Positions 1 through 64,000 of a stretch of DNA of 64,000 bases are shown in pieces. The translations under genes were made by a program, and so were the position numbers. The notes under the pieces were generated by a model. It saw only the letters and a list, made by a program, of their open reading frames with translations, was not told the origin of the DNA and ran no database searches. The stretch is from the NCBI GenBank assembly GCA_964016885.1, contig CAXHJY010000001.1, forward strand, positions 248,001 to 312,000. Direction: 5' to 3'. The stretch comes from Eledone cirrhosa (taxonomy: Eukaryota). The stretch's first letter is position 1; the number at the start of each line of letters is the position of its first letter.

Positions 1-3000
1 TCTCACTACCATAACATAACCTCCACATTCATCACCCATGTCACACTACCGTGTAACATACCCTCCACATTCATCACCTATGTCACACTACCATGTAATA
101 TATCCTCCACATTCATCACCCATGTCACACTACCATGTAACATATCCTCCACATTCATCACCCATGTCTCACTACCATAACATAACCTCCACATTCATCA
201 CCCATGTCACACTACCGTGTAAGATCTCCTCCACATTCATCACCTATGTCACACTACCATGTAATATATCCTCCACATTCATCACCCATCTCTCACTACC
301 ATGTAACATATCCTCCACATTCATCACCCATGTCACACTACCATGTCACATAACCTCCACATTCATCACCCATGTCTCACTACCATAACATATCCTTCAC
401 ATTCATCACCCATGTCTCACTACCATAACATAACCGCCACATTCATCACCCATGTCACACTACCGTGTAAGATCTCCTCCACATTCATCACCTATGTCAC
501 ACTACCATGTAATATATCCTCCACATTCGTCACCCATATCTCACTACCATAACATATCTCCACATTCATCATCCATGTCACACTAGCATGTAACATATCC
601 TCCACATTCATCACCCATGTCACACTACCATGTCACATAACCTCCACATTCATCACCCATGTCTCACTACCATAACATATCCTTCACATTCATCACCCAT
701 GTCTCACTACCATAACATAACCTCCACATTCATCACCCATGTCACACTACCGTGTAACATATCCTCCACATTCATCACCCATGTCACACTACTATGTAAC
801 ATATCCTCCACATTCATCACCCATGTCTCACTACCATAACATAACCTCCACATTCATCACCCATGTCACACTACCGTGTAACATATCCTCCACATTCATC
901 ACCTATGTCACACTACCATGTAATATATCCTCCACATTCATCACCCATGTCTCACTACCATGTAACATATCCTCCACATTCATCACCCATGTCACACTAC
1001 CATGTAACATATCTACACATTCATCACCCATGTCACACTACCATATCACATAACCTCCACATTCATCACCCATGTATCACTACCATGTAACATAACCTCT
1101 TCATTCATCACCCATGTCTCACTACCATAACATAACCTCCACATTCATGACCCATGTCTCACTACCATGTAACATATCCTCCACATTCATCACCCATGTC
1201 TCACTACCATGTAACATAACCTCCACATTCATCACCCATGTCTCACTACCATAACATAACCTCCACATTCATCACCCATGTCTCACTACCAGAACATATC
1301 CTCCACATTCATCACCCATGTCTCACTACTATAACATATCTCCACATTCATTATCCATGTCACACTATCATGTAACATATCCTCCACATTCATCACCCAT
1401 GTCTCACTACCATAACATATCCTTCACATTCATCACTCATGTCTCACTACCATAACATAACCTCCACATTCATCACCCATGTCACACTACCATGTAACAT
1501 ATCCTCCACATTCATCACCCATGTCTCACTACCATAACATAACCTCCACATTCATCACCCATGTCACACTACCATAACATATCCTCCACATTCATCACCC
1601 ATGTCACACTACCATGTAACATATCCTCCACATTCATCACCCATGTCTCACTACCATAACATAACCTCCACATTCATCACCCATGTCACACTACCGTGTA
1701 ACATATCCTCCACATTCATCACCTATGTCACACTACCATGTGATATATCCTACACTTTCATCACCCATGTCTCACTACCATGTAACATATCCTCCACATT
1801 CGTCACCCATTTCTCACTACCATAACATATCTCCACATTCATCATCCATGTCACACTACCATGTAACATATACTCCACATTCATCACCCATGTCACACTA
1901 CCATAACATATCTCCACATTCATCACCCATGTAACATATCCTCCACATTCATCACCCATGTAACATATCCTCCACGTTCATCACCCATGTCTCACTACCA
2001 TAACATAACCTCCACATTCATCACCCTTGTCACACTACCATAACATATCCTTCACATTAATACCCATGTCACACTACCATGTAACATATCCTCCACATTC
2101 ATCACCCATGTCTCACTACCATAACATAACCTCCACATTCATCACCCATGTCACACTACCGTGTAACATATCCTCCACATTCATCACCTATGTCACACTA
2201 CCATGTAATATATCCTCCACATTCATCACCCATGTCACACTACCATGTAACATATCCTCCACATTCATCACCCATGTCTCACTACCATAACATAACCTCC
2301 ACATTCATCACCCATGTCACACTACCGTGTAAGATCTCCTCCACATTCATCACCTATGTCACACTACCATGTAATATATCCTCCACATTCATCACCCATG
2401 TCTCACTACCATGTAACATATCCTCCACATTCATCACCCATGTCACACTACCATGTCACATAACCTCCACATTCATCACCCATGTCTCACTACCATAACA
2501 TATCCTCCACATTCATCACCCATGTCTCACTACCATAACATAACCTCCACATTCATCACCCATGTCACACTACCATAACATATCTCCACATTCATCACCC
2601 ATGTCACACTACCATGTAACATATCCTCCACATATATCACCCATGTCACACTACCATGTAACATATCCTCCACATTCATCACCCATGCCTCACTACCATA
2701 ACATAACCTCCACATTCATCACCCATGTCACACTACCGTGTAACATATCCTCCAAATTCATCACCTATGTCACACTACCATGTAATATATCCTACACTTT
2801 CATCACCCATGTCTCACTACCATGTAACATATCCTCCACATTCATCACCCATGTCTCACTACCATAACATATCTCCACATTCATCATCCATGTCACACTA
2901 CCATGTAACATATCCTCCACATTCATCACCCATGTCACACTACCATGTCACATAACCTCCACATTCATCACCCATGTCTCACTACCATAACATATCCTTC

Positions 3001-6000
3001 ACATTCATCACCCATGTCTCACTACCATAACATAACCTCCACATTCATCACCCATGTCACACTACCATGTAACATATCCTCCACATTCATCACCCATGTC
3101 TCACTACCATAACATAACCTCCACATTCATCACCCATGTCACACTACCATGTAACATATCCTCCACATTCATCACCCATGTCACACTACTATGTAACATA
3201 TCCTCCACATTCATCACCCATGTCTCACTACCATAACATAACCTCCACATTCATCACCCATGTCACACTACCGTGTAACATATCCTCCACATTCATCACC
3301 TATGTCACACTACCATGTAATATATCCTCCACATTCATCACCCATGTCTAACTACCATGTAACATATCCTCCACATTCATCACCCATGTCACACTACCAT
3401 GTAACATATCTACACATTCATCACCCATGTCACACTACCATATCACATAACCTCCACATTCATCACCCATGTATCACTACCATGTAACATAACCTCTTCA
3501 TTCATCACCCATGTCTCACTACCATAACATAACCTCCACATTCATGACCCATGTCTCACTACCATGTAACATATCCTCCACATTCATCACCCATGTCTCA
3601 CTACCATGTAACATAACCTCCACATTCATCACCCATGTCTCACTACCATAACATAACCTCCACATTCATCACCCATGTCTCACTACCAGAACATATCCTC
3701 CACATTCATCACCCATGTCTCACTACCATAACATATCTCCACATTCATTATCCATGTCACACTATCATGTAACATATCCTCCACATTCATCACCCATGTC
3801 TCACTACCATAACATATCCTTCACATTCATCACCCATGTCTCACTACCATAACATAACCTCCACATTCATCACCCATGTCACACTACCATGTAACATATC
3901 CTCCACATTCATCACCCATGTCTCACTACCATAACATAACCTCCACATTCATCACCCATGTCACACTACCATAACATATCCTCCACATTCATCACCCATG
4001 TCACACTACCATGTAACATATCCTCCACATTCATCACCCATGTCTCACTACCATAACATAACCTCCACATTCATCACCCATGTCACACTACCGTGTAACA
4101 TATCCTCCACATTCATCACCTATGTCACACTACCATGTAATATATCCTACACTTTCATCACCCATGTCTCACTACCATGTAACATATCCTCCACATTCGT
4201 CACCCATTTCTCACTACCATAACATATCTCCACATTCATCATCCATGTCACACTACCATGTAACATATACTCCACATTCATCACCCATGTCACACTACCT
4301 TGTCACATAACTTCAACATTCATCACCCATGTCTCACTACCATAACATATCCTTCACATTCATCACCCATGTCTCACTACCATAACATAACCTCCACATT
4401 CATCACCCATGTCACACTACCATAACATATCTCCACATTCATCACCCATGTTACACTACCATGTAACATATCCTCCACATTCATCACCCATGTCTCACTA
4501 CCATAAATAACCTCCACATTCAACACCCATGTCACACTACCATAACATATCCTCCACATTCATCACCCATGTCGCACTACCATGTAACATATCCTCCACA
4601 TATATCACCCATGTCACACTACCATGTAACATATCCTCCACATTCATCACCCATGTCTCACTACCATAACATAACCTCCACATTCATCACCCATGTCACA
4701 CTACCGTGTAACATATCCTCCAAATTCATCACCTATGTCACACTACCATGTAATATATCCTACACTTTCATCACCCATGTCTCACTACCATGTAACATAT
4801 CCTCCACATTCATCACCCATGTCTCACTACCATAACATATCTCCACATTCATCATCCATGTCACACTACCATGTAACATATCCTCCACATTCATCACCCA
4901 TGTCACACTACCATGTCACATAACCTCCACATTCATCACCCATGTCTCACTACCATAACATATCCTTCACATTCATCACCCATGTCTCACTACCATAACA
5001 TAACCTCCACATTCATCACCCATGTCACACTACCATGTAACATATCCTCCACATTCATCACCCATGTCTCACTACCATAACATAACCTCCACATTCATCA
5101 CCCATGTCACACTACCATGTAACATATCCTCCACATTCATCACCCATGTCACACTACTATGTAACATATCCTCCACATTCATCACCCATGTCTCACTACC
5201 ATAACATAACCTCCACATTCATCACCCATGTCACACTACCGTGTAACATATCCTCCACATTCATCACCTATGTCACACTACCATGTAATATATCCTCCAC
5301 ATTCATCACCCATGTCTCACTACCATGTAACATATCCTCCACATTCATCACCCATGTCACACTACCATGTAACATATCTACACATTCATCACCCATGTCA
5401 CACTACCATATCACATAACCTCCACATTCATCACCCATGTATCACTACCATGTAACATAACCTCTTCATTCATCACCCATGTCTCACTACCATAACATAA
5501 CCTCCACATTCATGACCCATGTCTCACTACCATGTAACATATCCTCCACATTCATCACCCATGTCTCACTACCATAACATAACCTCCACATTCATCACCC
5601 ATGTCACACTACCATAACATATCCTCCACATTCATCACCCATGTCACACTACCATGTAACATATCCTCCACATTCATCACCCATGTCTCACTACCATAAC
5701 ATAACCTCCACATTCATCACCCATGTCACACTACCGTGTAACATATCCTCCACATTCATCACCTATGTCACACTACCATGTAATATATCCTACACTTTCA
5801 TCACCCATGTCTCACTACCATGTAACATATCCTCCACATTCGTCACCCATTTCTCACTACCATAACATATCTCCACATTCATCATCCATGTCACACTACC
5901 ATGTAACATATCCTCCACATTCATCACCCATGTCTCACTACCATAACATAACCTCCACATTCATCACCCATGTCACACTGCCGTGTCACATATCCTCCAC

Positions 6001-9000
6001 ATTCATCACCTATGTCACACTACCATGTAATATATCCTCCACATTCATCACCCATGTCTCACTACCATGTAACATATCCTCCACAATAATGACCCATGTC
6101 TCACTACCATAACATAGCCTCCACATTCATCACCATGTCTCACTACCATAACATAACCTCCACATTCATCACCCATGTCTCACTACCATGTAACATATCC
6201 TCCACATTCGTCACCCATTTCTCACTACCATAACATATCTCCACATTCATCATCCATGTCACACTACCATGTAACATATACTCCACATTCATCACCCATG
6301 TCACACTACCATAACATATCTCCACATTCATCACCCATGTAACATATCCTCCACATTCATCACCCATGTCTCACTACCATAACATAACCTCCACATTCAT
6401 CACCCATGTCTCACTACCATGTAACATATCCTCCACATTCATCACCCATGTCTCACTACCATGTAACATAACCTCCACATTCATCACCCATGTCTCACTA
6501 CCATAACATAACCTCCACATTCATCACCCATGTCTCACTACCAGAACATATCCTCCACATTCATCACCCATGTCTCACTACCATAACATATCTCCACATT
6601 CATTATCCATGTCACACTATCATGTAACATATCCTCCACATTCATCACCCATGTCTCACTACCATAACATATCCTTCACATTCATCACCCATGTCTCACT
6701 ACCATAACATAACCTCCACATTCATCACCCATGTCACACTACCATGTAACATATCCTCCACATTCATCACCCATGTCTCACTACCATAACATAACCTCCA
6801 CATTCATCACCCATGTCACACTACCATAACATATCCTCCACATTCATCACCCATGTCACACTACCATGTAACATATCCTCCACATTCATCACCCATGTCT
6901 CACTACCATAACATAACCTCCACATTCATCACCCATGTCACACTACCGTGTAACATATCCTCCACATTCATCACCTATGTCACACTACCATGTAATATAT
7001 CCTACACTTTCATCACCCATGTCTCACTACCATGTAACATATCCTCCACATTCGTCACCCATTTCTCACTACCATAACATATCTCCACATTCATCATCCA
7101 TGTCACACTACCATGTAACATATACTTTACATTCATCACCCATGTCACACTACCTTGTCACATAACTTCAACATTCATCACCCATGTCTCACTACCATAA
7201 CATATCCTTCACATTCATCACCCATGTCTCACTACCATAACATAACCTCCACATTCATCACCCATGTCACACTACCATAACATATCTCCACATTCATCAC
7301 CCATGTTACACTACCATGTAACATATCCTCCACATTCATCACCCATGTCTCACTACCATAAATAACCTCCACATTCAACACCCATGTCACACTACCATAA
7401 CATATCCTCCACATTCATCACCCATGTCGCACTACTATGTAACATATCCTCCACATTCATCACCCATGTCTCACTACCATAACATAACCTCCACATTCAT
7501 CACCCATGTCACACTGCCGTGTCACATATCCTCCACATTCATCACCTATGTCACACTACCATGTAATATATCCTCCACATTCATCACCCATGTCTCACTA
7601 CCATGTAACATATCCTCCACATTCATCACCCATGTCACACTACCATGTAACATATCTACACATTCATCACCCATGTCACACTACCATATCACATAACCTC
7701 CACATTCATCACCCATGTATCACTACCATGTAACATAACCTCTTCATTCATCACCCATGTCTCACTACCATAACATAACCTCCACATTCATGACCCATGT
7801 CTCACTACCATGTAACATATCCTCCACATTCATCACCCATGTCTCACTACCATGTAACATAACCTCCACATTCATCACCCATGTCTCACTACCATAACAT
7901 AACCTCCACATTCATCACCCATGTCTCACTACCAGAACATATCCTCCACATTCATCACCCATGTCTCACTACTATAACATATCTCCACATTCATTATCCA
8001 TGTCACACTATCATGTAACATATCCTCCACATTCATCACCCATGTCTCACTACCATAACATATCCTTCACATTCATCACTCATGTCTCACTACCATAACA
8101 TAACCTCCACATTCATCACCCATGTCACACTACCATGTAACATATCCTCCACATTCATCACCCATGTCTCACTACCATAACATAACCTCCACATTCATCA
8201 CCCATGTCACACTACCATAACATATCCTCCACATTCATCACCCATGTCACACTACCATGTAACATATCCTCCACATTCATCACCCATGTCTCACTACCAT
8301 AACATAACCTCCACATTCATCACCCATGTCACACTACCGTGTAACATATCCTCCACATTCATCACCTATGTCACACTACCATGTAATATATCCTACACTT
8401 TCATCACCCATGTCTCACTACCATGTAACATATCCTCCACATTCGTCACCCATTTCTCACTACCATAACATATCTCCACATTCATCATCCATGTCACACT
8501 ACCATGTAACATATACTCCACATTCATCACCCATGTCACACTACCATAACATATCTCCACATTCATCACCCATGTAACATATCCTCCACATTCATCACCC
8601 ATGTAACATATCCTCCACGTTCATCACCCATGTCTCACTACCATAACATAACCTCCACATTCATCACCCTTGTCACACTACCATAACATATCCTTCACAT
8701 TAATACCCATGTCACACTACCATGTAACATATCCTCCACATTCATCACCCATGTCTCACTACCATAACATAACCTCCACATTCATCACCCATGTCACACT
8801 ACCGTGTAACATATCCTCCACATTCATCACCTATGTCACACTACCATGTAATATATCCTCCACATTCATCACCCATGTCACACTACCATGTAACATATCC
8901 TCCACATTCATCACCCATGTCTCACTACCATAACATAACCTCCACATTCATCACCCATGTCACACTACCGTGTAAGATCTCCTCCACATTCATCACCTAT

Positions 9001-12000
9001 GTCACACTACCATGTAATATATCCTCCACATTCATCACCCATGTCTCACTACCATGTAACATATCCTCCACATTCATCACCCATGTCACACTACCATGTC
9101 ACATAACCTCCACATTCATCACCCATGTCTCACTACCATAACATATCCTCCACATTCATCACCCATGTCTCACTACCATAACATAACCTCCACATTCATC
9201 ACCCATGTCACACTACCATAACATATCTCCACATTCATCACCCATGTCACACTACCATGTAACATATCCTCCACATATATCACCCATGTCACACTACCAT
9301 GTAACATATCCTCCACATTCATCACCCATGCCTCACTACCATAACATAACCTCCACATTCATCACCCATGTCACACTACCGTGTAACATATCCTCCAAAT
9401 TCATCACCTATGTCACACTACCATGTAATATATCCTACACTTTCATCACCCATGTCTCACTACCATGTAACATATCCTCCACATTCATCACCCATGTCTC
9501 ACTACCATAACATATCTCCACATTCATCATCCATGTCACACTACCATGTAACATATCCTCCACATTCATCACCCATGTCACACTACCATGTCACATAACC
9601 TCCACATTCATCACCCATGTCTCACTACCATAACATATCCTTCACATTCATCACCCATGTCTCACTACCATAACATAACCTCCACATTCATCACCCATGT
9701 CACACTACCATGTAACATATCCTCCACATTCATCACCCATGTCTCACTACCATAACATAACCTCCACATTCATCACCCATGTCACACTACCATGTAACAT
9801 ATCCTCCACATTCATCACCCATGTCACACTACTATGTAACATATCCTCCACATTCATCACCCATGTCTCACTACCATAACATAACCTCCACATTCATCAC
9901 CCATGTCACACTACCGTGTAACATATCCTCCACATTCATCACCTATGTCACACTACCATGTAATATATCCTCCACATTCATCACCCATGTCTAACTACCA
10001 TGTAACATATCCTCCACATTCATCACCCATGTCACACTACCATGTAACATATCTACACATTCATCACCCATGTCACACTACCATATCACATAACCTCCAC
10101 ATTCATCACCCATGTCTCACTACCATAACATATCCTTCACATTCATCACCCATGTCTCACTACCATAACATAACCTCCACATTCATCACCCATGTCACAC
10201 TACCATGTAACATATCCTCCACATTCATCACCCATGTCTCACTACCATAACATAACCTCCACATTCATGACCCATGTCTCACTACCATGTAACATATCCT
10301 CCACATTCATCACCCATGTCTCACTACCATGTAACATAACCTCCACATTCATCACCCATGTCTCACTACCATAACATAACCTCCACATTCATCAACCATG
10401 TCTCACTACCAGAACATATCCTCCACATTCATCACCCATGTCTCACTACCATAACATATCTCCACATTCATTATCCATGTCACACTATCATGTAACATAT
10501 CCTCCACATTCATCACCCATGTCTCACTACCATAACATATCCTTCACATTCATCACCCATGTCTCACTACCATAACATAACCTCCACATTCATCACCCAT
10601 GTCACACTACCATGTAACATATCCTCCACATTCATCACCCATGTCTCACTACCATAACATAACCTCCACATTCATCACCCATGTCACACTACCATAACAT
10701 ATCCTCCACATTCATCACCCATGTCACACTACCATGTAACATATCCTCCACATTCATCACCCATGTCTCACTACCATAACATAACCTCCACATTCATCAC
10801 CCATGTCACACTACCGTGTAACATATCCTCCAAATTCATCACCTATGTCACACTACCATGTAATATATCCTACACTTTCATCACCCATGTCTCACTACCA
10901 TGTAACATATCCTCCACATTCGTCACCCATTTCTCACTACCATAACATATCTCCACATTCATCATCCATGTCACACTACCATGTAACATATACTCCACAT
11001 TCATCACCCATGTCACACTACCTTGTCACATAACTTCAACATTCATCACCCATGTCTCACTACCATAACATATCCTTCACATTCATCACCCATGTCTCAC
11101 TACCATAACATAACCTCCACATTCATCACCCATGTCACACTACCATAACATATCTCCACATTCATCACCCATGTTACACTACCATGTAACATATCCTCCA
11201 CATTCATCACCCATGTCTCACTACCATAAATAACCTCCACATTCAACACCCATGTCACACTACCATAACATATCCTCCACATTCATCACCCATGTCGCAC
11301 TACTATGTAACATATCCTCCACATTCATCACCCATGTCTCACTACCATAACATAACCTCCACATTCATCACCCATGTCACACTGCCGTGTCACATATCCT
11401 CCACATTCATCACCTATGTCACACTACCATGTAATATATCCTCCACATTCATCACCCATGTCTCACTACCATGTAACATATCCTCCACAATAATGACCCA
11501 TGTCTCACTACCATAACATAGCCTCCACATTCATCACCATGTCTCACTACCATAACATAACCTCCACATTCATCACCCATGTCTCACTACCATGTAACAT
11601 ATCCTCCACATTCGTCACCCATTTCTCACTACCATAACATATCTCCACATTCATCATCCATGTCACACTACCATGTAACATATACTCCACATTCATCACC
11701 CATGTCACACTACCATAACATATCTCCACATTCATCACCCATGTAACATATCCTCCACATTCATCACCCATGTCTCACTACCATAACATAACCTCCACAT
11801 TCATCACCCATGTCTCACTACCATGTAACATATCCTCCACATTCATCACCCATGTCTCACTACCATGTAACATAACCTCCACATTCATCACCCATGTCTC
11901 ACTACCATAACATAACCTCCACATTCATCACCCATGTCTCACTACCAGAACATATCCTCCACATTCATCACCCATGTCTCACTACCATAACATATCTCCA

Positions 12001-42388: not shown

Positions 42389-42568
42389 GTAATGTGCAGT
42401 GAAATAAAATCCTACATTGACAATACTGGAGAAACATATGGATCCCAAAATAACCTTTGCATTTTACTGAATTCTCTTTCCAATATTTATCAAAATTTAG
42501 CAATAAATATATTTTTTTATTCTTATTGCAAATCGTATTGAGAAATATAAACAGTACTGGGATAATGT

Positions 42569-43113: not shown

Positions 43114-43117
43114 ATGT

Positions 43118-43206
43118 TGTCCTAATTTATAACACTGTTTAGACAAAACTGTCCTAATTTATAACTGTTTAGACAAAACTGTTCCTATTTACAGTACTGT
43201 TTAGAC
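43118..43206. repeat. Three tandem copies of a 27-32-bp unit (tgtcctaatttataac(ac)tgtttagacaaaac)
   Basis: Units at 43118-43149, 43150-43179 and a degenerate copy at 43180-43206. Confidence 0.9.
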
Positions 43207-43315
43207 TGTCCCATATTTTCAACAGAACTGTCCCATATTTTCAACAAAGTGTCCCATATTTTCAACAAAATGTCCCCCATATTTTCAACAAAATGTGTCC
43301 CATATTTTCAACAAA
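43207..43315. repeat. Five tandem copies of a 20-25-bp unit (tgtcccatattttcaacaaa)
   Basis: Units start at 43207, 43229, 43250, 43271 and 43296. Confidence 0.93.
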
Positions 43316-43904
43316 TATATTAGAGCTATACAAAATATTAGACGTGAAAGTGAGTCACCTTGGAAAATTTCGCAGTCGATGCTAATATTGTTTGAACTTA
43401 GTACTCCATTGGAATGGTATAATTGGAGATTTGTGTTCCACAATGATATATTAGGTTTCGAAAAGTTTGAAATTACGGGGGAAATTTTGAAGATGTCCAG
43501 TGATTTCAGACTCCATGAGTGCGGTATGCTGTCAAAAGCTTTTTTATAATTGATCCATGTGGAACTTAGATACCTGCACTTGTTATGACAGTTCTCAATG
43601 ATTGTAGGATTAATTAAGAGTTGACCTTTACATCCATTGGCACCCTTTTTGTTCAGTAGGGAAAATATTGCTCTCTTCCATAAATACATGTTTTCTCGGT
43701 GAAAATAGATGTTAAAACTTCATAAGTGGTGAATAAACAGGTTTGGGGTCAATAGTTTTTTGGTAGTAATACCACATGTTATCAGTCATGTAGTTTTTCA
43801 AGATCTTTCATAATTCCATTGAACAGCTTCACTAATATTTTGGTGCACACGAGAGCAATGAAAGTCAGAAATTTGTCACCCTATCTTTACCAGGAAATTT
43901 CCAC
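43316..43904 (-). pseudogene. Decayed reverse transcriptase fragment of a non-LTR retrotransposon, R2/R4 superfamily (R4/Dong-like), RT domains 0 to about 4
   Basis: Reading across frameshifts on the minus strand: KWKFPGKDRVTNF*L ... KILVKLFNGIMKDLEK ... ITCGIT ... PKNY*PQTCLFTTYEVLTSIFTEK ... FMEESNIFPTEQKGC ... GCKGQLLINPTIIENCHNKCRYLSSTWINYKKAFDSIPHSW ... IFQGDSLSRLIFCIALI. These correspond to the LINE RT motifs PGxD, NYRPI, DxxKAFDS and QGDSLSP. The catalytic YxDD is absent. Confidence 0.92.
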
Positions 43905-49900: not shown

Positions 49901-52900
49901 GTGTCATCCTTTACTCTACCATTGAGATGTCTTTGTCAGTGTCATCCTTTATTCTACTATTGAGATGTCTTTGTCAGTGTCATCCTTTACTCTACTATTG
50001 AGATGTCTTTGTCAATGCCATCCTTTACTCTACTATTGAGATATCTCTGTCAGTGCCATCCTTTACTTTACCATTGAGATGTCTTTGTCAGTGCCATCCT
50101 TTACTCTACTATTGAGATGTCTTTGTCAGTTCCATCCTTTACTCTACTATTGAGATGTCTTTGTCAGTGTCATCCTTTACTCTACTATTGAGATGTCTTT
50201 GTCAGTGTCATCCTTTACTCTACTATTGAGATGTTTTTTAATCAGTGCCATCCTTTACTTTACTATTGAGATGTCTTTGTCAGTGCCATCCTTTACTTTA
50301 CTATTGAGATGTCTTTGTCAGTGTCATCCTTTACTCTACCATTGAGATGTCTTTGTCAGTGCCATCCTTTACTTTACTATTGAGATATCTTTGTCAGTGT
50401 CATCCTTTACTCTACTATTGAGATGTCTTTGTCAGTGTCATCCTTTACTCTACTATTGAGACGTCTTTGTCAGTGTCATCCTTTACTCTATTGAGATGTC
50501 TTTGTCAGTGTCATCCTTTACTCTACTATTGAGATGTCTTTGTCAGTGTCATCCTTTACTCTACTATTGAGATGTTTTTGTCAGTGCCATCCTTTACTTT
50601 ACTATTGAGATGTCTTTGTCAGTGTCATCCTTTACTCTACCATTGAGATGTCTTTGTCAGTGCCATCCTTTACTCTACTATTGAGATGTCTTTGTCAGTG
50701 TCATCCTTTACCTTACTATTGAGATGTCTTTGTCAGTGCCATCCTTTACTCTACTATTGAGATGTCTTTGTCAGTGCCATCCTTTACTCTACTATTGAGA
50801 TGTCTTTGTCAGTGTCATCCTTTACTCTACTATTGAGATGTCTTTGTCAGTGTCATCCTTTACTCTACTATTGAGATGTTTTTTAATCAGTGCCATCATT
50901 TACTTTACTATTGAGATGTCTTTGTCAGTGCAATCCTTTACTCTACTATTGAGATGTCTTTGTCAGTGTCATCCTTTACTCTACCATTGAGATGTCTTTG
51001 TCAGTGCCATCCTTTACTTTACTATTGAGATATCTTTGTCAGTGTCATCCTTTACTCTACTATTGAGATGTCTTTGTCAGTGTCATCCTTTACTCTACTA
51101 TTGAGACGTCTGTGTCAGTGTCATCCTTTACTCTATTGAGATGTCTTTGTCAGTGTCATCCTTTACTCTACTATTGAGATGTCTTTGTCAGTGCCATCCT
51201 TTACTCTACTATTGAGATGTCTTTGTCAGTGTCATCCTTTACTTTACTATTGAGATGTCTTTGTCAGTGTCATCCTTTATTCTACTATTGAGATGTCTTT
51301 GTCAGTGTCATCCTTTACTTTATTATTAAGATGTCTTTGTCAGTGCCATCCTTTACTCTACTATTGAGATGTCTTTGTCACTGCCATCCTTTACTTTACC
51401 ATTGAGAGGTCTTTGTCAGTGCCATCCTTTACTCTACTATTGAGATGTCTTTGTCAGTGCCATCCTTTACTCTACTATTGAGATGTCTTTGTCAGTGCCA
51501 TCCTTTACTCTACTGTTGAGATGTCTTTGTCAGTGTCATCCTTTACTCTACTATTGAGATGTCTTTGTCAGTGTCATCCTTTACTCTACTATTGTGATGT
51601 CTTTGTCAGTGTCATCCTTTACTCTACTATTAAGATGTCTTTGTCAGTGTCATCCTTTACTCTACTATTGAGATGTCTTTGTCAGTGTCATGCTTTACTT
51701 TAGTATTGAGATGTCTTTGTCAGTGCCATGCTTTACTCTATTGAGATGTCTTTGTCAGTGTCATCCTTTACTCTACTATTGAGATATCTTTGTCAGTGTC
51801 ATCCTTTACTCTATTGAGATGTCTTTGTCTGTGCCATCCTTTACTTTACTATTGAGATGTCTTTTTCAGTGTCATCCTTTACTCTACTATAGAGATCTCT
51901 TTGTCAGTGTCATCCTTTACTCTACTATTGAGATGTCTTTGTCAGTGTCATCCTTTACTCTATTGAGATGTCTTTGTCTGTGCCATCCTTTACTTTACTA
52001 TTGAGATGTCTTTGTCAGTGTCATCCTTTACTTTACTATTGAGATGTCTTTGTCAGTGTCAACCTTTACTCTACTATTGAGATCTCTTTGTCAGTGTCAT
52101 CCTTTACTCTACTATTGAGATGTCTTTGTCAGTGTCATCCTTTACTTTACTACTGAGATGTCTTTGTCAGTGTCATCCTTTACTCTACTATTGAGATATC
52201 TTTGTCAGTGTCATCCTTTACTCTACTATTGAGATGTCTTTGTCAGTGTCATCCTTTACTCTACTATTGAGATGTCTTTGTCAGTGACATCCTTTACTCT
52301 ACTATTGAGATGTCTTTGTCAGTGCCATCCTTTACTCTACTATTGAGATATATTTGTCAGTGCCATCCTTTACTCTACTATTGAGATATATTTGTCAGTG
52401 CCATCCTTTACTTTACTATTGAGATGTCTTTGTCAGTGTCATCCTTTACTCTACTATTGAGATGTCTTTGTCAGTGTCATCCTTTACTCTATTGAGATGT
52501 CTTTGTCTGTGCCATCCTTTACTCTACTATTGAGATGTCTTTGTCAGTGCCATCCTTTACTCTACTATTGAGATGTCTTTGTCAGTGTCATCCTTTACTC
52601 TATTGAGATGTCTTTGTCAGTGCCATCCTTTACTCTACTATTGAGATGTCTTTGTTAGTGCCATGCTTTACTTTACTATTGAGATGTCTTTGTCAGTGTC
52701 ATCCTTTACTCTACTATTGAGATGTCTTTGTCAGTGCCATCCTTTACTCTACTATTGAGATGTCTTTGTCAGTGTCATCCTTTACTCTATTGAGATGTCT
52801 TTGTCAGTGTCATCCTTTACTCTATTGAGATGTCTTTGTCAGTGCCATCCTTTACTCTACTATTGAGATGTCTTTGTCAGTGCCATCCTTTACTTTCCTA

Positions 52901-55900
52901 TTGAGATGTCTTTGTCAGTGCCATCCTTTACTCTACTATTGAGATGTCTTTGTCAGTGTCATCCTTTACTTTACTATTGAGATGCCTTTGTCATTGCCAT
53001 CCTTTACTTTACTACTGAGATGTCTTTGTCAGTGCCATCCTTTACTCTACTATTGAGATATGTTTGTCAGTGTCATCCTTTACTCTACTAATGAGATGTC
53101 TTTGTCATTGCCATCCTTTACTTTACTACTGAGATGTCTTTGTCAGTGTCATACTTTACTCTACTATTGAGATGTCTTTGTTAGTCTCATCCTTTACTCT
53201 ACTATTGAGATGTCTTTGTCAGTTCCATCCTTTACTCTACTATTGAGATGTCTTTGTCTGTGCCATCCTTTACTCTACTATTGAGATGTCTTTGTCAGTG
53301 CCATCCTTTACTCTACTATTGAGATGTCTTTGTCAGTGCCATCCTTTACTCTACTATTGAGATGTCTTTGTCAGTGCCATCCTTTACTCTATTGAGATGT
53401 CTTTGTCAGTGTCATCCTTCACTTTACTACTGAGATGTCTTTGTCAGTGCCATCCTTTACTCTATTATTGAGATGTCTTTGTCAGTGCCATCCTTTACTC
53501 TATTGAGATGTCTTTGTCAGTGTCATCCTTTACTTTACTACTGAGATGTCTTTGTCAGTGCCATCCTTTACTCTATTGAGATGTCTTTGTCAGTGCCATC
53601 CTTTACTCTACTATTGAGATGTCTTTGTCAGTGCCATCCTTTACTCTATTGAGATGTCTTTGTCAGTGTCATCCTTTACATTACTACTGAGATGTCTTTG
53701 TCAGTGCCATCCTTTACTCTACTATTGAGATGTCTTTGTCAGTGTCATCCTTTACTCTACTATTGAGATGTCTTTGTCAGTGCCATCCTTTACTCTACTA
53801 TTGAGATGTCTTTGTCAGTGTCATCCTTTACTCTACTATTGAGATGTCTTTGTCAGTGTCATCATTTACTCTACTATTGAGATGTCTTTGTCAGTGTCAT
53901 CCTTTACTCTACTATTGAGATGTCTTTGTCAGTGCCATCCTTTACTCTACTATTGAGATGTCTTTGTCAGTGCCATCCTTTACTCTACTATTGAGATGTC
54001 TTTGTCAGTGTCATCCTTTACTCTACCATTGAGATGTCTTTGTCAGTGTCATCCTTTACTCTACTATTGAGATGTCTTTGTCAGTGCCATCCTTTACTCT
54101 ACTATTGAGATGTCTTTGTCAGTGCCATCCTTTACTCTACTATTGAGATGTCTTTGTCAGTGTCATCCTTTACTCTATTGAGATGTCTTTGTCTGTGCCA
54201 TCCTTTACTCTACTATTGAGATGTCTTTGTCAGTGTCATCCTTTACTCTATTGAGATGTCTTTGTCAGTGCCATCCTTTACTCTACGATTGAGATGTCTT
54301 TGTCAGTGCCATCCTTTACTCTACTATTGAGATGTCTTTGTCAGTGTCATCCTTTACTTTACTATTGAGATGTCTTTGTCAGTGCCATCCTTTACTCTAT
54401 TGAGATGTCTTTGTCAGTGTCATCCTTTACTCTACTATTGAGATGTCTTTGTCAGTGCTATCCTTTACTCTACTATTGAGATGTCTTTGTCAGTGTCATC
54501 CTTTACTCCATTGAGATGTCTTTGTCTGTGCCATCCTTTACTTTACTATTGAGATGTCTTTGTCAGTGTCATCCTTTACTCTACTATTGATATGTCTTTG
54601 TCAGTGTCATCCTTTACTCTACTATTGAGATATCTTTGTCAGTGTCATCCTTTACTTTACTATTGAGATGTCTTTGTCAGTGCCATCCTTTACTCTACTA
54701 TTGATATGTCTTTCTCAGTGTCATCCTTTACTCTATTGAGATGTCTTTGTCAGTACCATCCTTTACTTTACTCTACTATTGAGATGTCTTTGTCAAAGCC
54801 TTCCTTTACTTTACTACTGAGATGTCTTTGTCAGTACCATCCTTTACTCTACTATTGAGATGTCTTTGTCAGTGCCATCCTTTACTTTACTACTGAGATG
54901 TCTTTGTCAGTGTCATCCTTTACTCTACTATTGAGATGTCTTTGTCAGTGCCATCCTTTACTTTACTACTGAGATGTCTTTGTCAGTGTCATCCTTTACT
55001 CTACTATTGAGATGTCTTTGTCAGTGTCATCCTTTACTCTACTATTGAGATGTCTTTGTCAGTGTCATCCTTTACTCTACTATTGAGATGTCTTTGTCAG
55101 TGCCATCCTTTACTCTACTATTGAGATGTATTTGTCAGTGCCATCCTTTACTTTACTATTGAGATGTCTTTGTCAGTGCCATCCTTTACTCTACTATTGA
55201 GATGTCTTTGTCAGTGCCATCCTTTACTCTACTATTGAGATGTCTTTGTCAGTGCCATCCTTTACTCTACTATTGAGATGTCTTTGTCAGTGCCATCCTT
55301 TACTCTACTATTGAGATGTCTTTGTCAGTGCCATCCTTTACTCTATTGAGATGTCTTTGTCAGTGTCATCCTTTACTCTACTATTGAGATGTCTTTGTCA
55401 GTGTCATCCTTTACTCTATTGAGATGTCTTTGTCAGTGTCATCCTTTACTCTATTGAGATGTCTTTGTCAGTGTCATCCTTTACTCTATTGAGATGTCTT
55501 TGTCAGTGTCATCCTTTACTTTACTACTGAGATGTCTTTGTCAGTGCCATCCTTTACTCTACTATTGAGATGTCTTTGTCAGTGCCATCTTTACTCTATT
55601 GAGATGTCTTTGTCAGTGTCATCCTTCACTTTACTACTGAGATGTCTTTGTCAGTGCCATCCTTTACTCTACTATTGAGATGTCTTTGTCAGTGCCATCC
55701 TTTACTCTATTGAGATGTCTTTGTCAGTGTCATCCTTCACTTTACTACTGAGATGTCTTTGTCAGTGACATCCTTTACTCTACTATTGAGATGTCTTTGT
55801 CAGTGCCATCCTTTACTCTATTGAGATGTCTTTGTCAGTGTTATCCTTTACTTTACTACTGAGATGTCTTTGTCAGTGCCATCCTTCATTCTACTATTGA

Positions 55901-58900
55901 GATGTCTTTGTCTGTGTCATCCTTTACTCTATTGAGATGTCTTTGTCAGTGCCATCCTTTACTCTACTATTGAGATGTCTTTGTCAGTGCCATCCTTTAC
56001 TCTATTGAGATGTCTTTGTCAGTGTCATCCTTTACTTTACTACTGAGATGTCTTTGTCAGTGCCATCCTTTACTCTACTATTGAGATGTCTTTGTCAGTG
56101 TCATCCTTTACTCTACCATTGAGATGTCTTTGTCAGTGTCATCCTTTACTCTACTATTGAGATGTCTTTGTCAGTGCCATCCTTTACTCTACTATTGAGA
56201 TGTCTTTGTCAGTGTCATCCTTTACTCTACTATTGAGATGTCTTTGTCAGTGACATCATTTACTCTACTATTGAGATGTCTTTGTCAGTGTCATCCTTTA
56301 CTCTACTATTGAGATGTCTTTGTCAGTGTCATCCTTTACTCTATTGAGATGTCTTTGTCTGTGCCATCCTTTACTCTACTATTGAGATGTCTTTGTCAGT
56401 GTCATCCTTTACTCTATTGAGATGTCTTTGTCAGTGCCATCCTTTACTCTACGATTGAGATGTCTTTGTCAGTGCCATCCGTTACTCTACTATTGAGATG
56501 TCTTTGTCAGTGTCATCCTTTACTTTACTATTGAGATGTCTTTGTCAGTGCCATCCTTTACTCTATTGAGATGTCTTTGTCAGTGTCATCCTTTACTCTA
56601 CTATTGAGATGTCTTTGTCAGTGCTATCCTTTACTCTACTATTGAGATGTCTTTGTCAGTGTCATCCTTTACTCTATTGAGATGTCTTTGTCTGTGCCAT
56701 CCTTTACTTTACTATTGAGATGTCTTTGTCAGTGTCATCCTTTACTCTACTATTGAGATGTCTTTGTCAGTGTCATCCTTTACTCTACTATTGAGATGTC
56801 TTTGTCAGTGTCATCCTTTACTTTACTATTGAGATGTCTTTGTCAGTGCCATCCTTTACTCTACTGTTGAGATGTCTTTGTCAGTGTCATCCTTTACTCT
56901 ATTGAGATGTCTTTGTCAGTACCATCCTTTACTTTACTATTGAGATGTCTTTGTCAAAGCCATACTTTACTCTACTATTGAGATGTCTTTGTCAGTGTCA
57001 TCCTTTAATTTACTATTGAGATGTCTTTGTCAGTGCCATCCTTTACTTTACTACTGAGATGTCTTTGTCAGTACCATCCTTTACTCTACTATTGGGATAT
57101 CTTTGTCAGTGTCATCCTTTACTCTACCATTGAGATGTCTTTGTCAGTGCCATCCTTTACTCTACTATTGAGATGTCTTTGTCAGTGTCATCCTTTACCT
57201 TACTATTGAGATGTCTTTGTCAGTGCCATCCTTTATTCTACTATTGAGATGTCTTTGTCAGTGCCATCCTTTACTCTACTATTGAGATGTCTTTGTCAGT
57301 GTCATCCTTTACTCTACTATTGAGATGTCTTTGTCAGTGTCATCCTTTACTCTACTATTGAGATGTTTTTTAATCAGTGCCATCATTTACTTTACTATTG
57401 AGATGTCTTTGTCAGTGCAATCCTTTACTCTACTATTGAGATGTCTTTGTCAGTGTCATCCTTTACTCTACCATTGAGATGTCTTTGTCAGTGCCATCCT
57501 TTACTTTACTATTGAGATATCTTTGTCAGTGTCATCCTTTACTCTACTATTGAGATGTCTTTGTCAGTGTCATCCTTTACTCTACTATTGAGACGTCTGT
57601 GTCAGTGTCATCCTTTACTCTATTGAGATGTCTTTGTCAGTGTCATCCTTTACTCTACTATTGAGATGTCTTTGTCAGTGCCATCCTTTACTCTACTATT
57701 GAGATGTCTTTGTCAGTGTCATCCTTTACTTTACTATTGAGATGTCTTTGTCAGTGTCATCCTTTATTCTACTATTGAGATGTCTTTGTCAGTGTCATCC
57801 TTTACTTTATTATTAAGATGTCTTTGTCAGTGCTATCCTTTACTCTACTATTGAGATGTCTTTGTCACTGCCATCCTTTACTTTACCATTGAGAGGTCTT
57901 TGTCAGTGCCATCCTTTACTCTACTATTGAGATGTCTTTGTCAGTGCCATCCTTTACTCTACTATTGAGATGTCTTTGTCAGTGCCATCCTTTACTCTAC
58001 TGTTGAGATGTCTTTGTCAGTGTCATCCTTTACTCTACTATTGAGATGTCTTTGTCAGTGTCATCCTTTACTCTACTATTGTGATGTCTTTGTCAGTGTC
58101 ATCCTTTACTCTACTATTAAGATGTCTTTGTCAGTGTCATCCTTTACTCTACTATTGAGATGTCTTTGTCAGTGTCATGCTTTACTTTAGTATTGAGATG
58201 TCTTTGTCAGTGCCATGCTTTACTCTATTGAGATGTCTTTGTCAGTGTCATCCTTTACTCTACTATTGAGATATCTTTGTCAGTGTCATCCTTTACTCTA
58301 TTGAGATGTCTTTGTCTGTGCCATCCTTTACTTTACTATTGAGATGTCTTTTTCAGTGTCATCCTTTACTCTACTATAGAGATCTCTTTGTCAGTGTCAT
58401 CCTTTACTCTACTATTGAGATGTCTTTGTCAGTGTCATCCTTTACTCTATTGAGATGTCTTTGTCTGTGCCATCCTTTACTTTACTATTGAGATGTCTTT
58501 GTCAGTGTCATCCTTTACTTTACTATTGAGATGTCTTTGTCAGTGTCAACCTTTACTCTACTATTGAGATCTCTTTGTCAGTGTCATCCTTTACTCTACT
58601 ATTGAGATGTCTTTGTCAGTGTCATCCTTTACTTTACTACTGAGATGTCTTTGTCAGTGTCATCCTTTACTCTACTATTGAGATGTCTTTGTCAGTGTCA
58701 TCCTTTACTCTACTATTGAGATGTCTTTGTCAGTGTCATCCTTTACTCTACTATTGAGATGTCTTTGTCAGTGACATCCTTTACTCTACTATTGAGATGT
58801 CTTTGTCAGTGTCATCCTTTACTCTACTATTGAGATATATTTGTCAGTGCCATCCTTTACTCTACTATTGAGATATATTTGTCAGTGCCATCCTTTACTT

Positions 58901-61900
58901 TACTATTGAGATGTCTTTGTCAGTGTCATCCTTTACTCTACTATTGAGATGTCTTTGTCAGTGTCATCCTTTACTCTATTGAGATGTCTTTGTCTGTGCC
59001 ATCCTTTACTCTACTATTGAGATGTCTTTGTCAGTGCCATCCTTTACTCTACTATTGAGATGTCTTTGTCAGTGTCATCCTTTACTCTATTGAGATGTCT
59101 TTGTCAGTGCCATCCTTTACTCTACTATTGAGATGTCTTTGTTAGTGCCATGCTTTACTTTACTATTGAGATGTCTTTGTCAGTGTCATCCTTTACTCTA
59201 CTATTGAGATGTCTTTGTCAGTGCCATCCTTTACTCTACTATTGAGATGTCTTTGTCAGTGTCATCCTTTACTCTATTGAGATGTCTTTGTCAGTGTCAT
59301 CCTTTACTCTATTGAGATGTCTTTGTCAGTGCCATCCTTTACTCTACTATTGAGATGTCTTTGTCAGTGCCATCCTTTACTTTCCTATTGAGATGTCTTT
59401 GTCAGTGCCATCCTTTACTCTACTATTGAGATGTCTTTGTCAGTGTCATCCTTTACTTTACTATTGAGATGCCTTTGTCATTGCCATCCTTTACTTTACT
59501 ACTGAGATGTCTTTGTCAGTGCCATCCTTTACTCTACTATTGAGATATGTTTGTCAGTGTCATCCTTTACTCTACTAATGAGATGTCTTTGTCATTGCCA
59601 TCCTTTACTTTACTACTGAGATGTCTTTGTCAGTGTCATACTTTACTCTACTATTGAGATGTCTTTGTTAGTCTCATCCTTTACTCTACTATTGAGATGT
59701 CTTTGTCAGTTCCATCCTTTACTCTACTATTGAGATGTCTTTGTCTGTGCCATCCTTTACTCTACTATTGAGATGTCTTTGTCAGTGCCATCCTTTACTC
59801 TACTATTGAGATGTCTTTGTCAGTGCCATCCTTTACTCTACTATTGAGATGTCTTTGTCAGTCCCATCCTTTACTCTATTGAGATGTCTTTGTCAGTGTC
59901 ATCCTTCACTTTACTACTGAGATGTCTTTGTCAGTGCCATCCTTTACTCTATTATTGAGATGTCTTTGTCAGTGCCATCCTTTACTCTATTGAGATGTCT
60001 TTGTCAGTGTCATCCTTTACTTTACTACTGAGATGTCTTTGTCAGTGCCATCCTTTACTCTATTGAGATGTCTTTGTCAGTGCCATCCTTTACTCTACTA
60101 TTGAGATGTCTTTGTCAGTGCCATCCTTTACTCTATTGAGATGTCTTTGTCAGTGTCATCCTTTACATTACTACTGAGATGTCTTTGTCAGTGCCATCCT
60201 TTACTCTACTATTGAGATGTCTTTGTCAGTGTCATCCTTTACTCTACTATTGAGATGTCTTTGTCAGTGCCATCCTTTACTCTACTATTGAGATGTCTTT
60301 GTCAGTGTCATCCTTTACTCTACTATTGAGATGTCTTTGTCAGTGTCATCATTTACTCTACTATTGAGATGTCTTTGTCAGTGTCATCCTTTACTCTACT
60401 ATTGAGATGTCTTTGTCAGTGCCATCCTTTACTCTACTATTGAGATGTCTTTGTCAGTGCCATCCTTTACTCTACTATTGAGATGTCTTTGTCAGTGTCA
60501 TCCTTTACTCTACCATTGAGATGTCTTTGTCAGTGTCATCCTTTACTCTACTATTGAGATGTCTTTGTCAGTGCCATCCTTTACTCTACTATTGAGATGT
60601 CTTTGTCAGTGCCATCCTTTACTCTACTATTGAGATGTCTTTGTCAGTGTCATCCTTTACTCTATTGAGATGTCTTTGTCTGTGCCATCCTTTACTCTAC
60701 TATTGAGATGTCTTTGTCAGTGTCATCCTTTACTCTATTGAGATGTCTTTGTCAGTGCCATCCTTTACTCTACGATTGAGATGTCTTTGTCAGTGCCATC
60801 CTTTACTCTACTATTGAGATGTCTTTGTCAGTGTCATCCTTTACTTTACTATTGAGATGTCTTTGTCAGTGCCATCCTTTACTCTATTGAGATGTCTTTG
60901 TCAGTGTCATCCTTTACTCTACTATTGAGATGTCTTTGTCAGTGCTATCCTTTACTCTACTATTGAGATGTCTTTGTCAGTGTCATCCTTTACTCCATTG
61001 AGATGTCTTTGTCTGTGCCATCCTTTACTTTACTATTGAGATGTCTTTGTCAGTGTCATCCTTTACTCTACTATTGATATGTCTTTGTCAGTGTCATCCT
61101 TTACTCTACTATTGAGATATCTTTGTCAGTGTCATCCTTTACTTTACTATTGAGATGTCTTTGTCAGTGCCATCCTTTACTCTACTATTGATATGTCTTT
61201 GTCAGTGTCATCCTTTACTCTATTGAGATGTCTTTGTCAGTACCATCCTTTACTTTACTCTACTATTGAGATGTCTTTGTCAAAGCCTTCCTTTACTTTA
61301 CTACTGAGATGTCTTTGTCAGTACCATCCTTTACTCTACTATTGAGATGTCTTTGTCAGTGCCATCCTTTACTTTACTACTGAGATGTCTTTGTCAGTGT
61401 CATCCTTTACTCTACTATTGAGATGTCTTTGTCAGTGCCATCCTTTACTTTACTACTGAGATGTCTTTGTCAGTGTCATCCTTTACTCTACTATTGAGAT
61501 GTCTTTGTCAGTGTCATCCTTTACTCTACTATTGAGATGTCTTTGTCAGTGTCATCCTTTACTCTACTATTGAGATGTCTCTGTCAGTGCCATCCTTTAC
61601 TCTACTATTGAGATGTATTTGTCAGTGCCATCCTTTACTTTACTATTGAGATGTCTTTGTCAGTGCCATCCTTTACTCTACTATTGAGATGTCTTTGTCA
61701 GTGCCATCCTTTACTCTACTATTGAGATGTCTTTGTCAGTGCCATCCTTTACTCTACTATTGAGATGTCTTTGTCAGTGCCATCCTTTACTCTACTATTG
61801 AGATGTCTTTGTCAGTGCCATCCTTTACTCTATTGAGATGTCTTTGTCAGTGTCATCCTTTACTCTACTATTGAGATGTCTTTGTCAGTGTCATCCTTTA

Positions 61901-64000
61901 CTCTATTGAGATGTCTTTGTCAGTGTCATCCTTTACTCTATTGAGATGTCTTTGTCAGTGTCATCCTTTACTCTATTGAGATGTCTTTGTCAGTGTCATC
62001 CTTTACTTTACTACTGAGATGTCTTTGTCAGTGCCATCCTTTACTCTACTATTGAGATGTCTTTGTCAGTGCCATCTTTACTCTATTGAGATGTCTTTGT
62101 CAGTGTCATCCTTCACTTTACTACTGAGATGTCTTTGTCAGTGCCATCCTTTACTCTACTATTGAGATGTCTTTGTCAGTGCCATCCTTTACTCTATTGA
62201 GATGTCTTTGTCAGTGTCATCCTTCACTTTACTACTGAGATGTCTTTGTCAGTGACATCCTTTACTCTACTATTGAGATGTCTTTGTCAGTGCCATCCTT
62301 TACTCTATTGAGATGTCTTTGTCAGTGTTATCCTTTACTTTACTACTGAGATGTCTTTGTCAGTGCCATCCTTCATTCTACTATTGAGATGTCTTTGTCT
62401 GTGTCATCCTTTACTCTATTGAGATGTCTTTGTCAGTGCCATCCTTTACTCTACTATTGAGATGTCTTTGTCAGTGCCATCCTTTACTCTATTGAGATGT
62501 CTTTGTCAGTGTCATCCTTTACTTTACTACTGAGATGTCTTTGTCAGTGCCATCCTTTACTCTACTATTGAGATGTCTTTGTCAGTGTCATCCTTTACTC
62601 TACCATTGAGATGTCTTTGTCAGTGTCATCCTTTACTCTACTATTGAGATGTCTTTGTCAGTGCCATCCTTTACTCTACTATTGAGATGTCTTTGTCAGT
62701 GTCATCCTTTACTCTACTATTGAGATGTCTTTGTCAGTGACATCATTTACTCTACTATTGAGATGTCTTTGTCAGTGTCATCCTTTACTCTACTATTGAG
62801 ATGTCTTTGTCAGTGTCATCCTTTACTCTATTGAGATGTCTTTGTCTGTGCCATCCTTTACTCTACTATTGAGATGTCTTTGTCAGTGTCATCCTTTACT
62901 CTATTGAGATGTCTTTGTCAGTGCCATCCTTTACTCTACGATTGAGATGTCTTTGTCAGTGCCATCCGTTACTCTACTATTGAGATGTCTTTGTCAGTGT
63001 CATCCTTTACTCTATTGAGATGTCTTTGTCTGTGCCATCCTTTACTTTACTATTGAGATGTCTTTGTCAGTGTCATCCTTTACTCTACTATTGAGATGTC
63101 TTTGTCAGTGTCATCCTTTACTCTACTATTGAGATGTCTTTGTCAGTGTCATCCTTTACTTTACTATTGAGATGTCTTTGTCAGTGCCATCCTTTACTCT
63201 ACTGTTGAGATGTCTTTGTCAGTGTCATCCTTTACTCTATTGAGATGTCTTTGTCAGTACCATCCTTTACTTTACTATTGAGATGTCTTTGTCAAAGCCA
63301 TACTTTACTCTACTATTGAGATGTCTTTGTCAGTGTCATCCTTTAATTTACTATTGAGATGTCTTTGTCAGTGCCATCCTTTACTTTACTACTGAGATGT
63401 CTTTGTCAGTACCATCCTTTACTCTACTATTGGGATATCTTTGTCAGTGTCATCCTTTACTCTACTATTGAGATGTCCTTGTCAGTGCCATCCTTTACTT
63501 TACTACTGAGATGTCTTTGTCAGTGTCATCCTTTACTCTACTATTGAGATGTCTTTGTCAGTGTCATCCTTTACTCTACTATTGAGATGTCTTTGTCAGT
63601 GTCATCCTTTACTCTACTATTGAGATGTCTTTGTCAGTGCCATCCTTTACTCTACTATTGAGATATATTTGTCAGTGCCATCCTTTACTTTACTATTGAG
63701 ATGTCTTTGTCAGTGCCATCCTTTACTCTACTATTGAGATGTCTTTGTCAGTGCCATCCTTTACTCTACTATTGAGATGTCTTTGTCAGTGCCATCCTTT
63801 ACTCTATTGAGATGTCTTTGTCAGTGTCATCCTTCACTTTACTACTGAGATGTCTTTGTCAGTGCCATCCTTTACTCTACTATTGAGATGTCTTTGTCAG
63901 TGCCATCCTTTACTCTATTGAGATGTCTTTGTCAGTGTCATCCTTTACTTTACTACTGAGATGTCTTTGTCAGTGCCATCCTTCATTCTACTATTGAGAT
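43905..64000. repeat. Satellite array B: about 530 tandem monomers of 38 bp (tttgtcagtg[t/c]catcctttactctactattgagatgtc) with a frequent 35-bp variant
   Basis: Period of 38 seen directly (tcagtgtcat at 44101 and 44139). The 35-bp form lacks one cta (ctctattgag). Begins at 43905 and runs off the right edge. Confidence 0.98.

What the first reader, a model, noticed from the sequence alone, without database searches (positions are those of the whole stretch)
1..64000. Two independent LINE-seeded satellites on either side of one exon: a possible general satellite-birth process
Two unrelated LINE clades, 2.3 kb apart, each seem to have seeded a roughly 40-bp array of at least 20-41 kb from protein-coding sequence. 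Array A extends from the downstream end of its visible fragment and array B from the upstream end. TE-derived satellites are known, but two in-place cases with intact in-frame junctions around one exon suggest (inference) a locus- or genome-wide tendency to duplicate and amplify 20-45-bp units of intronic TE relics. The similar unit sizes hint at a common mechanism.
Basis: inference. Interest (0 to 1): 0.78.

Follow-up and report, generated by a model that had tools for sequence, protein, structure and literature searches.

The report
Giant intronic repeats grown from LINEs
Two very long arrays of about 40-base repeats flank a single exon, each grown out of a short piece of a different dead retrotransposon that still sits at its edge: a clear and unusually large example of a known way tandem repeats are born, not yet evidence of a special genome-wide process.

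Summary
Observation confirmed. Array A (1-41485, about 1,018 units of 42/40 bp) and array B (43904-64000, about 535 units of 38/35 bp) flank a fasciclin exon. A's commonest unit is 14 codons continuing the adjacent RTE-like LINE reverse transcriptase in register (0 of 5,000 shuffles). B's unit is 13 codons minus one base from an unrelated R2-group LINE (0-1 of 3,000); its junction lacks three codons. All 443 38-bp B units carry one stop, so B grew from an already dead copy. Both arrays enlarged by 99.9%-identical kilobase duplications. Two small arrays in the spacer show no LINE origin, favouring TE-blind duplication. An unrelated database record shows the same kind of LINE-seeded array. TE-derived minisatellites are known (23% of human ones, PMC3389668); what stands out is size and the attached parent. 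Generality, locus specificity, the far ends and the organism could not be tested.

The parts
1..41485 (-). Array A: tandem array of 42-bp (ancestral, 14 codons MLHGSETWVMNVED) and 40-bp units; continues beyond the window
   Evidence: TRF; 443 intervals of 42 bp and 407 of 40 bp among 1,058; profile test
41465..41608 (-). Relic of an RTE-like (APE-type, PHD-in-RT) LINE, C-terminal part of the RT; its last codons are the first unit of array A; 2 stops before the array
   Evidence: 224 hits at E<=1e-3; tblastn; homologs carry RVT_1 and PHD
42232..42388 (+). Internal coding exon of a fasciclin (FAS1) domain gene, open frame, AG/GT ends (alternative acceptor 2 nt downstream)
   Evidence: Pfam PF02469 E=4.7e-7; periostin E=3.6e-4; sequence
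43118..43206 (.). Small array, 30-32 bp x about 2.8, origin unknown
   Evidence: TRF score 123; no fit to the LINE profile
43207..43315 (.). Small array, 21-23 bp x 5, abutting the downstream break of LINE relic B; origin unknown
   Evidence: TRF score 159; no fit to the LINE profile
43312..43903 (-). Decayed relic of an R2-group (restriction-like endonuclease) LINE, N-terminal half of the RT, broken over all three frames
   Evidence: 225 hits; tblastn; HMM hits in 3 of 3 frames; homologs have CCHC 39 of 39 and PD..D 38 of 39
43904..64000 (-). Array B: tandem array of 38-bp (13 codons minus one base, DISIVE*RMTLTK / DISIVE*RMALTK) and 35-bp units; continues beyond the window
   Evidence: TRF; 443 of 533 units 38 bp, 81 of 533 35 bp; profile test

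Best explanation
Two antisense LINE fragments sat dead in the introns on either side of a fasciclin exon. In each, a replication or repair slip duplicated about 40 bp of old RT coding sequence in place (A: 42 bp bounded by two ATG-like codons, so at least a 3-bp microhomology is plausible; B: 38 bp). The doublets then grew by the ordinary minisatellite route, slippage and unequal exchange or gene conversion, first unit by unit (creating 40-, 35-, 29- and 13-bp variants at internal short repeats) and later in 0.9-6.6-kb blocks, to over 41 and 20 kb. The process is blind to TE origin: LINE relics are seeds because they are a large neutral part of introns. The arrays are most likely neutral intron filler. 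SHOWN: LINE origin and register, unrelated parents, dead founder for B, block duplications, slippage-type variants. INFERRED: in-place birth, microhomology at the first step, neutrality, intronic position.
For: Register and profile fit of both monomers exactly where the adjacent relic predicts (best of 28 offsets for B). A stop in 443 of 443 38-bp B units at a column where homologs have L/T/I/V: founder already pseudogenised, so not made during retrotransposition. Blocks of 5,775, 3,577, 2,592, 1,843 and 1,862 bp with 6, 3, 1, 0 and 2 mismatches. Private unit types are concentrated near junction A (0.30, 0.21, 0.25 in the first three sets of 100 units, 0.00-0.10 beyond), as expected if the junction side is old and growth happened away from it. 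Internal 6-bp direct repeat in the A unit 13/29 bp apart matches the 13- and 29-bp variants. Non-LINE small arrays of score 123 and 159 in the spacer; 0 of 200 local shuffles reach 123. Independent record P0262: a 53-residue cycle encoded by one 53-nt unit (1 incompatible codon of 53; shuffles at least 21) joined in register to the rest of an RTE-like RT. Known mechanism: PMC6947457, PMC3389668, PMC13167724.
Against: Only one junction of each array is visible. Junction B lacks three codons and the first two A units are private 43-bp variants with a non-LINE allele, so neither edge unit is a pristine founder. No age gradient is seen in array B (singleton share 0.01-0.03 throughout). The microhomology is inferred from homolog proteins, not seen in DNA. 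Arrays of 500-1,000+ units are far larger than typical TE-derived minisatellites (mean about 2.3 units for Alu, PMC3389668), and neutral drift alone does not explain why both grew so large next to each other.
Confidence: 0.66

Rival explanations
1. Lineage- or locus-specific amplifier: this genome (or this region) routinely expands 20-50-bp intronic duplications to tens of kb, LINE relics being favoured seeds; the first reader's general satellite-birth process.
For: Two giant arrays 2.4 kb apart, both LINE-coding derived; further small arrays in the 2.4-kb spacer beyond chance; both arrays show very recent block duplication.
Against: n=2 in a window chosen for being striking; 2 of the 4 clear arrays in the window show no LINE origin; the same event appears in an unrelated record, so it is not peculiar to this genome; no genome-wide data were available.
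Confidence: 0.2
2. Born elsewhere, delivered here: each monomer arose from the same LINE family at another locus, spread as a satellite family, and entered these relics by homologous recombination or circular-DNA reintegration using the 38-42 bp of shared sequence.
For: Would also give in-register junctions; junction B has a 9-bp gap; the modal A unit is closer to functional LINEs than the junction copy.
Against: Needs two independent targeted events 2.4 kb apart; junction units share major alleles with their arrays; 5,747 of 5,932 human TE-derived clusters are single-locus (PMC3389668).
Confidence: 0.1
3. Assembly artefact: array lengths inflated by misassembly of a shorter repeat.
For: Exact repeats of up to 1.8 kb; 72% of A and 88% of B lie in exact repeats of 300 bp or more.
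Against: 237 and 76 distinct unit types, nested duplications at many offsets and scattered substitutions between blocks in 4 of 5 pairs look like real history; origin and junctions are unaffected even if lengths are off.
Confidence: 0.04

Closest known systems
TE-derived minisatellites in the human genome (Ahmed and Liang 2012, PMC3389668; parts 1-3 of 4 read)
   Same: Units of 20-100 bp duplicated from inside a TE copy, mostly single-locus, expanded in situ by local duplication; 7,276 of 31,472 (23%) TE-derived, 601 from L1.
   Different: Mostly 2-3 units there; here over 500 and over 1,000 units with kilobase block duplications, and from RTE-like and R2-group RT coding sequence.
Satellites with LINE ORF2 homology: PROsat (Phodopus, L1 ORF2), Pvc20 (seal, L1 ORF2), chicken HinfI (CR1 ORF2 part), cetacean common satellite (L1 3' end) (listed in PMC9659126, passages read)
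   Same: Tandem arrays whose monomer contains LINE sequence, some of it coding.
   Different: Recognised by homology as satellite families; here the monomer is only 13-14 codons and the parental relic is still attached in register inside a gene. No RTE occurrence in that review's text.
Haber-Louis short-flanking-repeat model and microhomology-mediated tandem duplication (PMC6947457, PMC13167724; passages read)
   Same: First step is a duplication of a short stretch between microhomologies; units under 50 bp are common.
   Different: The microhomology here is inferred and short (about 3 bp for A, unknown for B), not the 5-10 bp of the model.
Satellites expanded from tandem repeats inside retrotransposons or Helitrons (PMC7004042, listing only; PMC12628747, passages)
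   Same: Long arrays traced to a TE.
   Different: Those start from arrays carried by the element; here homologs have a single copy of the unit and B's founder was already dead.

Membership tests
TE-derived tandem repeat formed in situ | Head-to-tail array | tested here: met
   TRF; unit decomposition
TE-derived tandem repeat formed in situ | Monomer homologous to a TE beyond chance | tested here: met
   A 39.7 bits, 0 of 5,000 shuffles (first 8 columns partly circular because the search query included the junction copy); B 12.9 and 7.4 bits, 0 and 1 of 3,000 (not circular)
TE-derived tandem repeat formed in situ | Parent TE adjoins in register at the near end | tested here: met
   A seamless; B in frame with three codons missing
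TE-derived tandem repeat formed in situ | Parent TE resumes in register at the far end, with flanking microhomology | not testable with these tools
   Both far ends lie outside the window
TE-derived tandem repeat formed in situ | Monomer confined to this locus | not testable with these tools
   No eukaryotic DNA collection; prokaryotic scans empty and uninformative
R2-group (RLE) non-LTR retrotransposon, parent of B | RT plus C-terminal CCHC and PD..D restriction-like endonuclease | tested here: met
   In homologs of 1,000 aa or more: 39 of 39 and 38 of 39; PDB hits are R2 proteins only, 5 of 5. The relic itself holds only RT
R4/Dong/Hero subclade, parent of B | Placement in an RT tree with named references | not tested
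RTE-like (APE) non-LTR retrotransposon, parent of A | RT with N-terminal AP endonuclease, no RLE | tested here: inconclusive
   Homologs have RVT_1 plus PHD; a related Atlas cluster has Exo_endo_phos in 81% but scores 0.86, a lead only. The RTE label rests on recalled motifs
Two unrelated LINE groups | Deeply diverged RTs | tested here: met
   20% identity over 283 aa between one homolog of each
Classical satellite DNA | Very long arrays, heterochromatic or multi-locus, high genomic abundance | not testable with these tools
   Only lower bounds of 41 and 20 kb; no cytogenetic or genome-wide data

The most novel reading that the evidence does not exclude
In this lineage short tandem duplications in introns are routinely amplified 500- to 1,000-fold into single-locus arrays of tens of kb, with dead LINE coding sequence a major seed; this would be a main builder of giant introns and a genome-wide set of datable satellite births with the founder still attached.
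Probability: 0.25. Interest if true: 0.72.

Novelty: new member of a known kind. Interest (0 to 1): 0.43.

Why it matters
Satellite origins are usually erased. Here the founder sequence, its reading frame and its mutational state can be read at the array edge, twice, so the order of events (insertion, decay, duplication, unit-wise growth, block-wise growth) is directly testable with an assembly and a related species. If the pattern holds genome-wide it would explain large introns in this lineage and mean that repeat annotation misses LINE-derived DNA hidden as simple repeats. On present evidence it is a fine example of a known process.

Tried and rejected
Word-based protein search with relic A found nothing (34 candidates, none at E<=1e-3); the exhaustive search did. 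Search for relatives of the exon found none (27 candidates); Atlas gave only generic fasciclin clusters under 0.9; cluster look-up of 10 homologs gave no organism names, so the organism is unidentified. An octopus-like mollusc is only a guess: RTE and Dong-R4 are prominent LINE groups in Octopus (PMC13282606, PMC9115989), but nothing ties the window to it; the one named close homolog of relic B is from Penaeus japonicus at 59%. The first profile for A used a faulty pattern (6 of 150 rows) and was discarded and redone. The edit-distance part had a scoring flaw (capped at 2) and is not used. The idea that the small arrays at 43118-43315 are a third and fourth LINE-seeded case was rejected (35 and 134 of 150 shuffles score as well). 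No Pfam match in 12 of 12 frames of the remaining spacer; no Rfam match in 41300-44100; no convincing terminal inverted repeats. Monomer scans of prokaryotic genomes were empty and say nothing about dispersal. Among fetched proteins with internal repeats, P0143 is a non-LINE repeat protein, P0130 and P0263 are low-complexity read-throughs, P0090 has one 70-residue N-terminal duplication; only P0262 was counted as a parallel case (1 of 150). PMC3849965 held nothing relevant.

Full report
Anatomy. The window is 96% tandem repeat. TRF finds array A at 1-41478 (period 42, 1,018 copies) and array B at 43904-64000 (period 38, 535 copies), both cut by the window ends. The 2.4-kb spacer holds, from left to right, a LINE relic on the minus strand (41608-41465), a plus-strand exon (42232-42388), two small arrays (43118-43206, 43207-43315) and a second minus-strand LINE relic (43903-43312). 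The exon has AG/GT ends and an open frame and matches Pfam Fasciclin at E=4.7e-7, above the cut-off, with periostin as best PDB hit (E=3.6e-4). It has no start or stop, so both arrays are probably intronic (inference). The organism was not identified.

Array A. The relic's 59-residue translation, stops read as X, found 224 proteins at E<=1e-3; longer hits carry RVT_1 and a PHD finger, and 8 of 8 homologs given to tblastn align at 41608 or just above to about 41465 at 45-58% identity. The label RTE-like is recalled from motifs; an Atlas cluster with RT, PHD and AP endonuclease is only a lead (score 0.86). Splitting the array gave 1,058 intervals, 443 of 42 bp and 407 of 40 bp; the commonest unit (113 copies) reads MLHGSETWVMNVED. 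Against a profile of the 14 columns that follow the relic in homologs (88 distinct rows from 148 hits; P0143 and P0262 left out) it scores 39.7 bits, homologs 35.7 on average, and 0 of 5,000 shuffled units reach it in any frame. The first eight columns are partly circular, since the query included the junction copy; the last six, not in the query, score 6.8 against a homolog mean of 8.5, without a null. The junction is seamless, but the first two units are private 43-bp variants, and the junction copy has a valine allele shared with 131 of 443 42-mers where homologs have glutamate. The 42-bp form is ancestral.

Array B. The open part of the relic found 225 proteins. Among the 120 listed, the 39 of 1,000 residues or more have a C-terminal CCHC (39 of 39) and PD..D motif (38 of 39), and the best long hit matches only R2 proteins in the PDB: an R2-group element with a restriction-like endonuclease; R4/Dong is a recalled label. 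One homolog of each parent share 20% over 283 residues. The two commonest 38-bp units read DISIVE*RMTLTK and DISIVE*RMALTK and score 7.4 and 12.9 bits against a profile from 47 distinct rows of 120 hits (1 and 0 of 3,000 shuffles; homolog mean 24.2), with the best fit at the expected place among 28 offsets. This test is not circular. The junction is in frame but three codons short (15 residues in 42 of 48 homologs, 12 here). All 443 38-bp units carry a stop at one conserved hydrophobic column, and the relic is broken over three frames, while units differ from their consensus by about 4%. B therefore grew from a copy that was already dead.

Growth. The monomers are unrelated. Length variants fit slippage at internal short repeats (13- and 29-bp variants at a 6-bp repeat in A; loss of 3 bp in B). 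Exact repeats of 300 bp or more cover 72% of A and 88% of B, at offsets of 0.9-14 kb; five block pairs of 1.8-5.8 kb differ at 0-6 positions. Near junction A private unit types are common (0.21-0.30 in the first 300 units, 0.00-0.10 beyond); B shows no such gradient. This reads as unit-wise growth followed by recent block duplication, and argues against a plain misassembly, though no reads were available.

Generality. For: the spacer's two small arrays (scores 123, 159) exceed chance; 6 of 200 local shuffles give any array of period 15 or more and none reaches 123. A parallel case turned up in 1 of 150 relatives of relic A: P0262, an unnamed record of a different family, has a 53-residue cycle that one 53-nt unit explains (1 incompatible codon of 53, shuffles at least 21), joined in register to the remaining RT. 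Against a TE-specific or lineage-specific process: the small arrays show no LINE origin (35 and 134 of 150 shuffles); P0262 suggests the event is not peculiar to this genome; two cases in a selected window cannot set a rate. Locus specificity was untestable: the only DNA collection scanned was prokaryotic and empty.

What is known. In the human genome 7,276 of 31,472 minisatellites are TE-derived, 601 from L1, 5,747 of 5,932 clusters single-locus, expanded in situ, usually with 2-3 units, and without genomic hotspots (PMC3389668, parts 1-3 of 4 read). Satellites with LINE ORF2 homology are listed for L1 and CR1 (PMC9659126, part 1 of 8 and passages). The short-flanking-repeat model is reviewed in PMC6947457 (passages); microhomology duplications under 50 bp are 38-51% of events in microbes (PMC13167724, passages). 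PMC12628747 (passages) and PMC7004042 (listing only) cover satellites from TE segments and TE-borne arrays. PMC13282606 (part 1 of 3) and PMC9115989 (passages) name RTE and Dong-R4 as octopus LINE groups, a lead only. Nine searches listed no report of arrays of tens of kb from RTE-like or R2-group RT coding sequence with the parent attached; the library lacks most subscription papers and I opened no supplements, so this is weak evidence of absence.

Verdict. The best reading is two independent in-place births of TE-derived minisatellites by a TE-blind duplication process, followed by exceptional growth (confidence 0.66). It is a new member of a known kind; the size, the pairing and the readable founders give it moderate interest (0.43). 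The general-process reading remains open (0.25) and is cheap to test with the full assembly.

Noticed in passing
P0262: Unnamed record with an apparent 53-bp tandem array grown from the same RT C-terminal region of another RTE-like LINE, joined in register to the rest of the RT: an independent parallel case.
   Followed up: partly
window 43118-43315: Two small arrays (30-32 bp x 2.8; 21-23 bp x 5) that resemble each other and abut the point where LINE relic B breaks off; not LINE-derived by profile test. Could be subterminal repeats of a decayed DNA transposon (recalled resemblance, untested).
   Followed up: partly
window 41485-41392: The first two units of array A share a private one-base insertion (43 bp), a local duplication at the edge that did not spread.
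   Followed up: yes
window 43790-43755: Relic B has lost roughly 24-30 bp in a stretch whose length is fixed in 77 of 77 homologs matched; possibly between short repeats, but the alignment is ambiguous.
   Followed up: partly
window 1-41485: The share of 42-bp units rises steadily from 0.39 at the junction to 0.66 at the window start; extreme strand asymmetry (GC skew about -0.8).
   Followed up: no
window 42148-42185: Weak 20-bp doublet (TRF score 55) just upstream of the exon; within the range of shuffles (maximum 66).
   Followed up: yes
P0090: R2-group LINE protein with a perfect 70-residue N-terminal duplication; natural or assembly-made.
   Followed up: no
window 41608-41465 and 43903-43312: Both LINE relics are antisense to the exon, as is usual for tolerated intronic insertions (recalled).
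   Followed up: no
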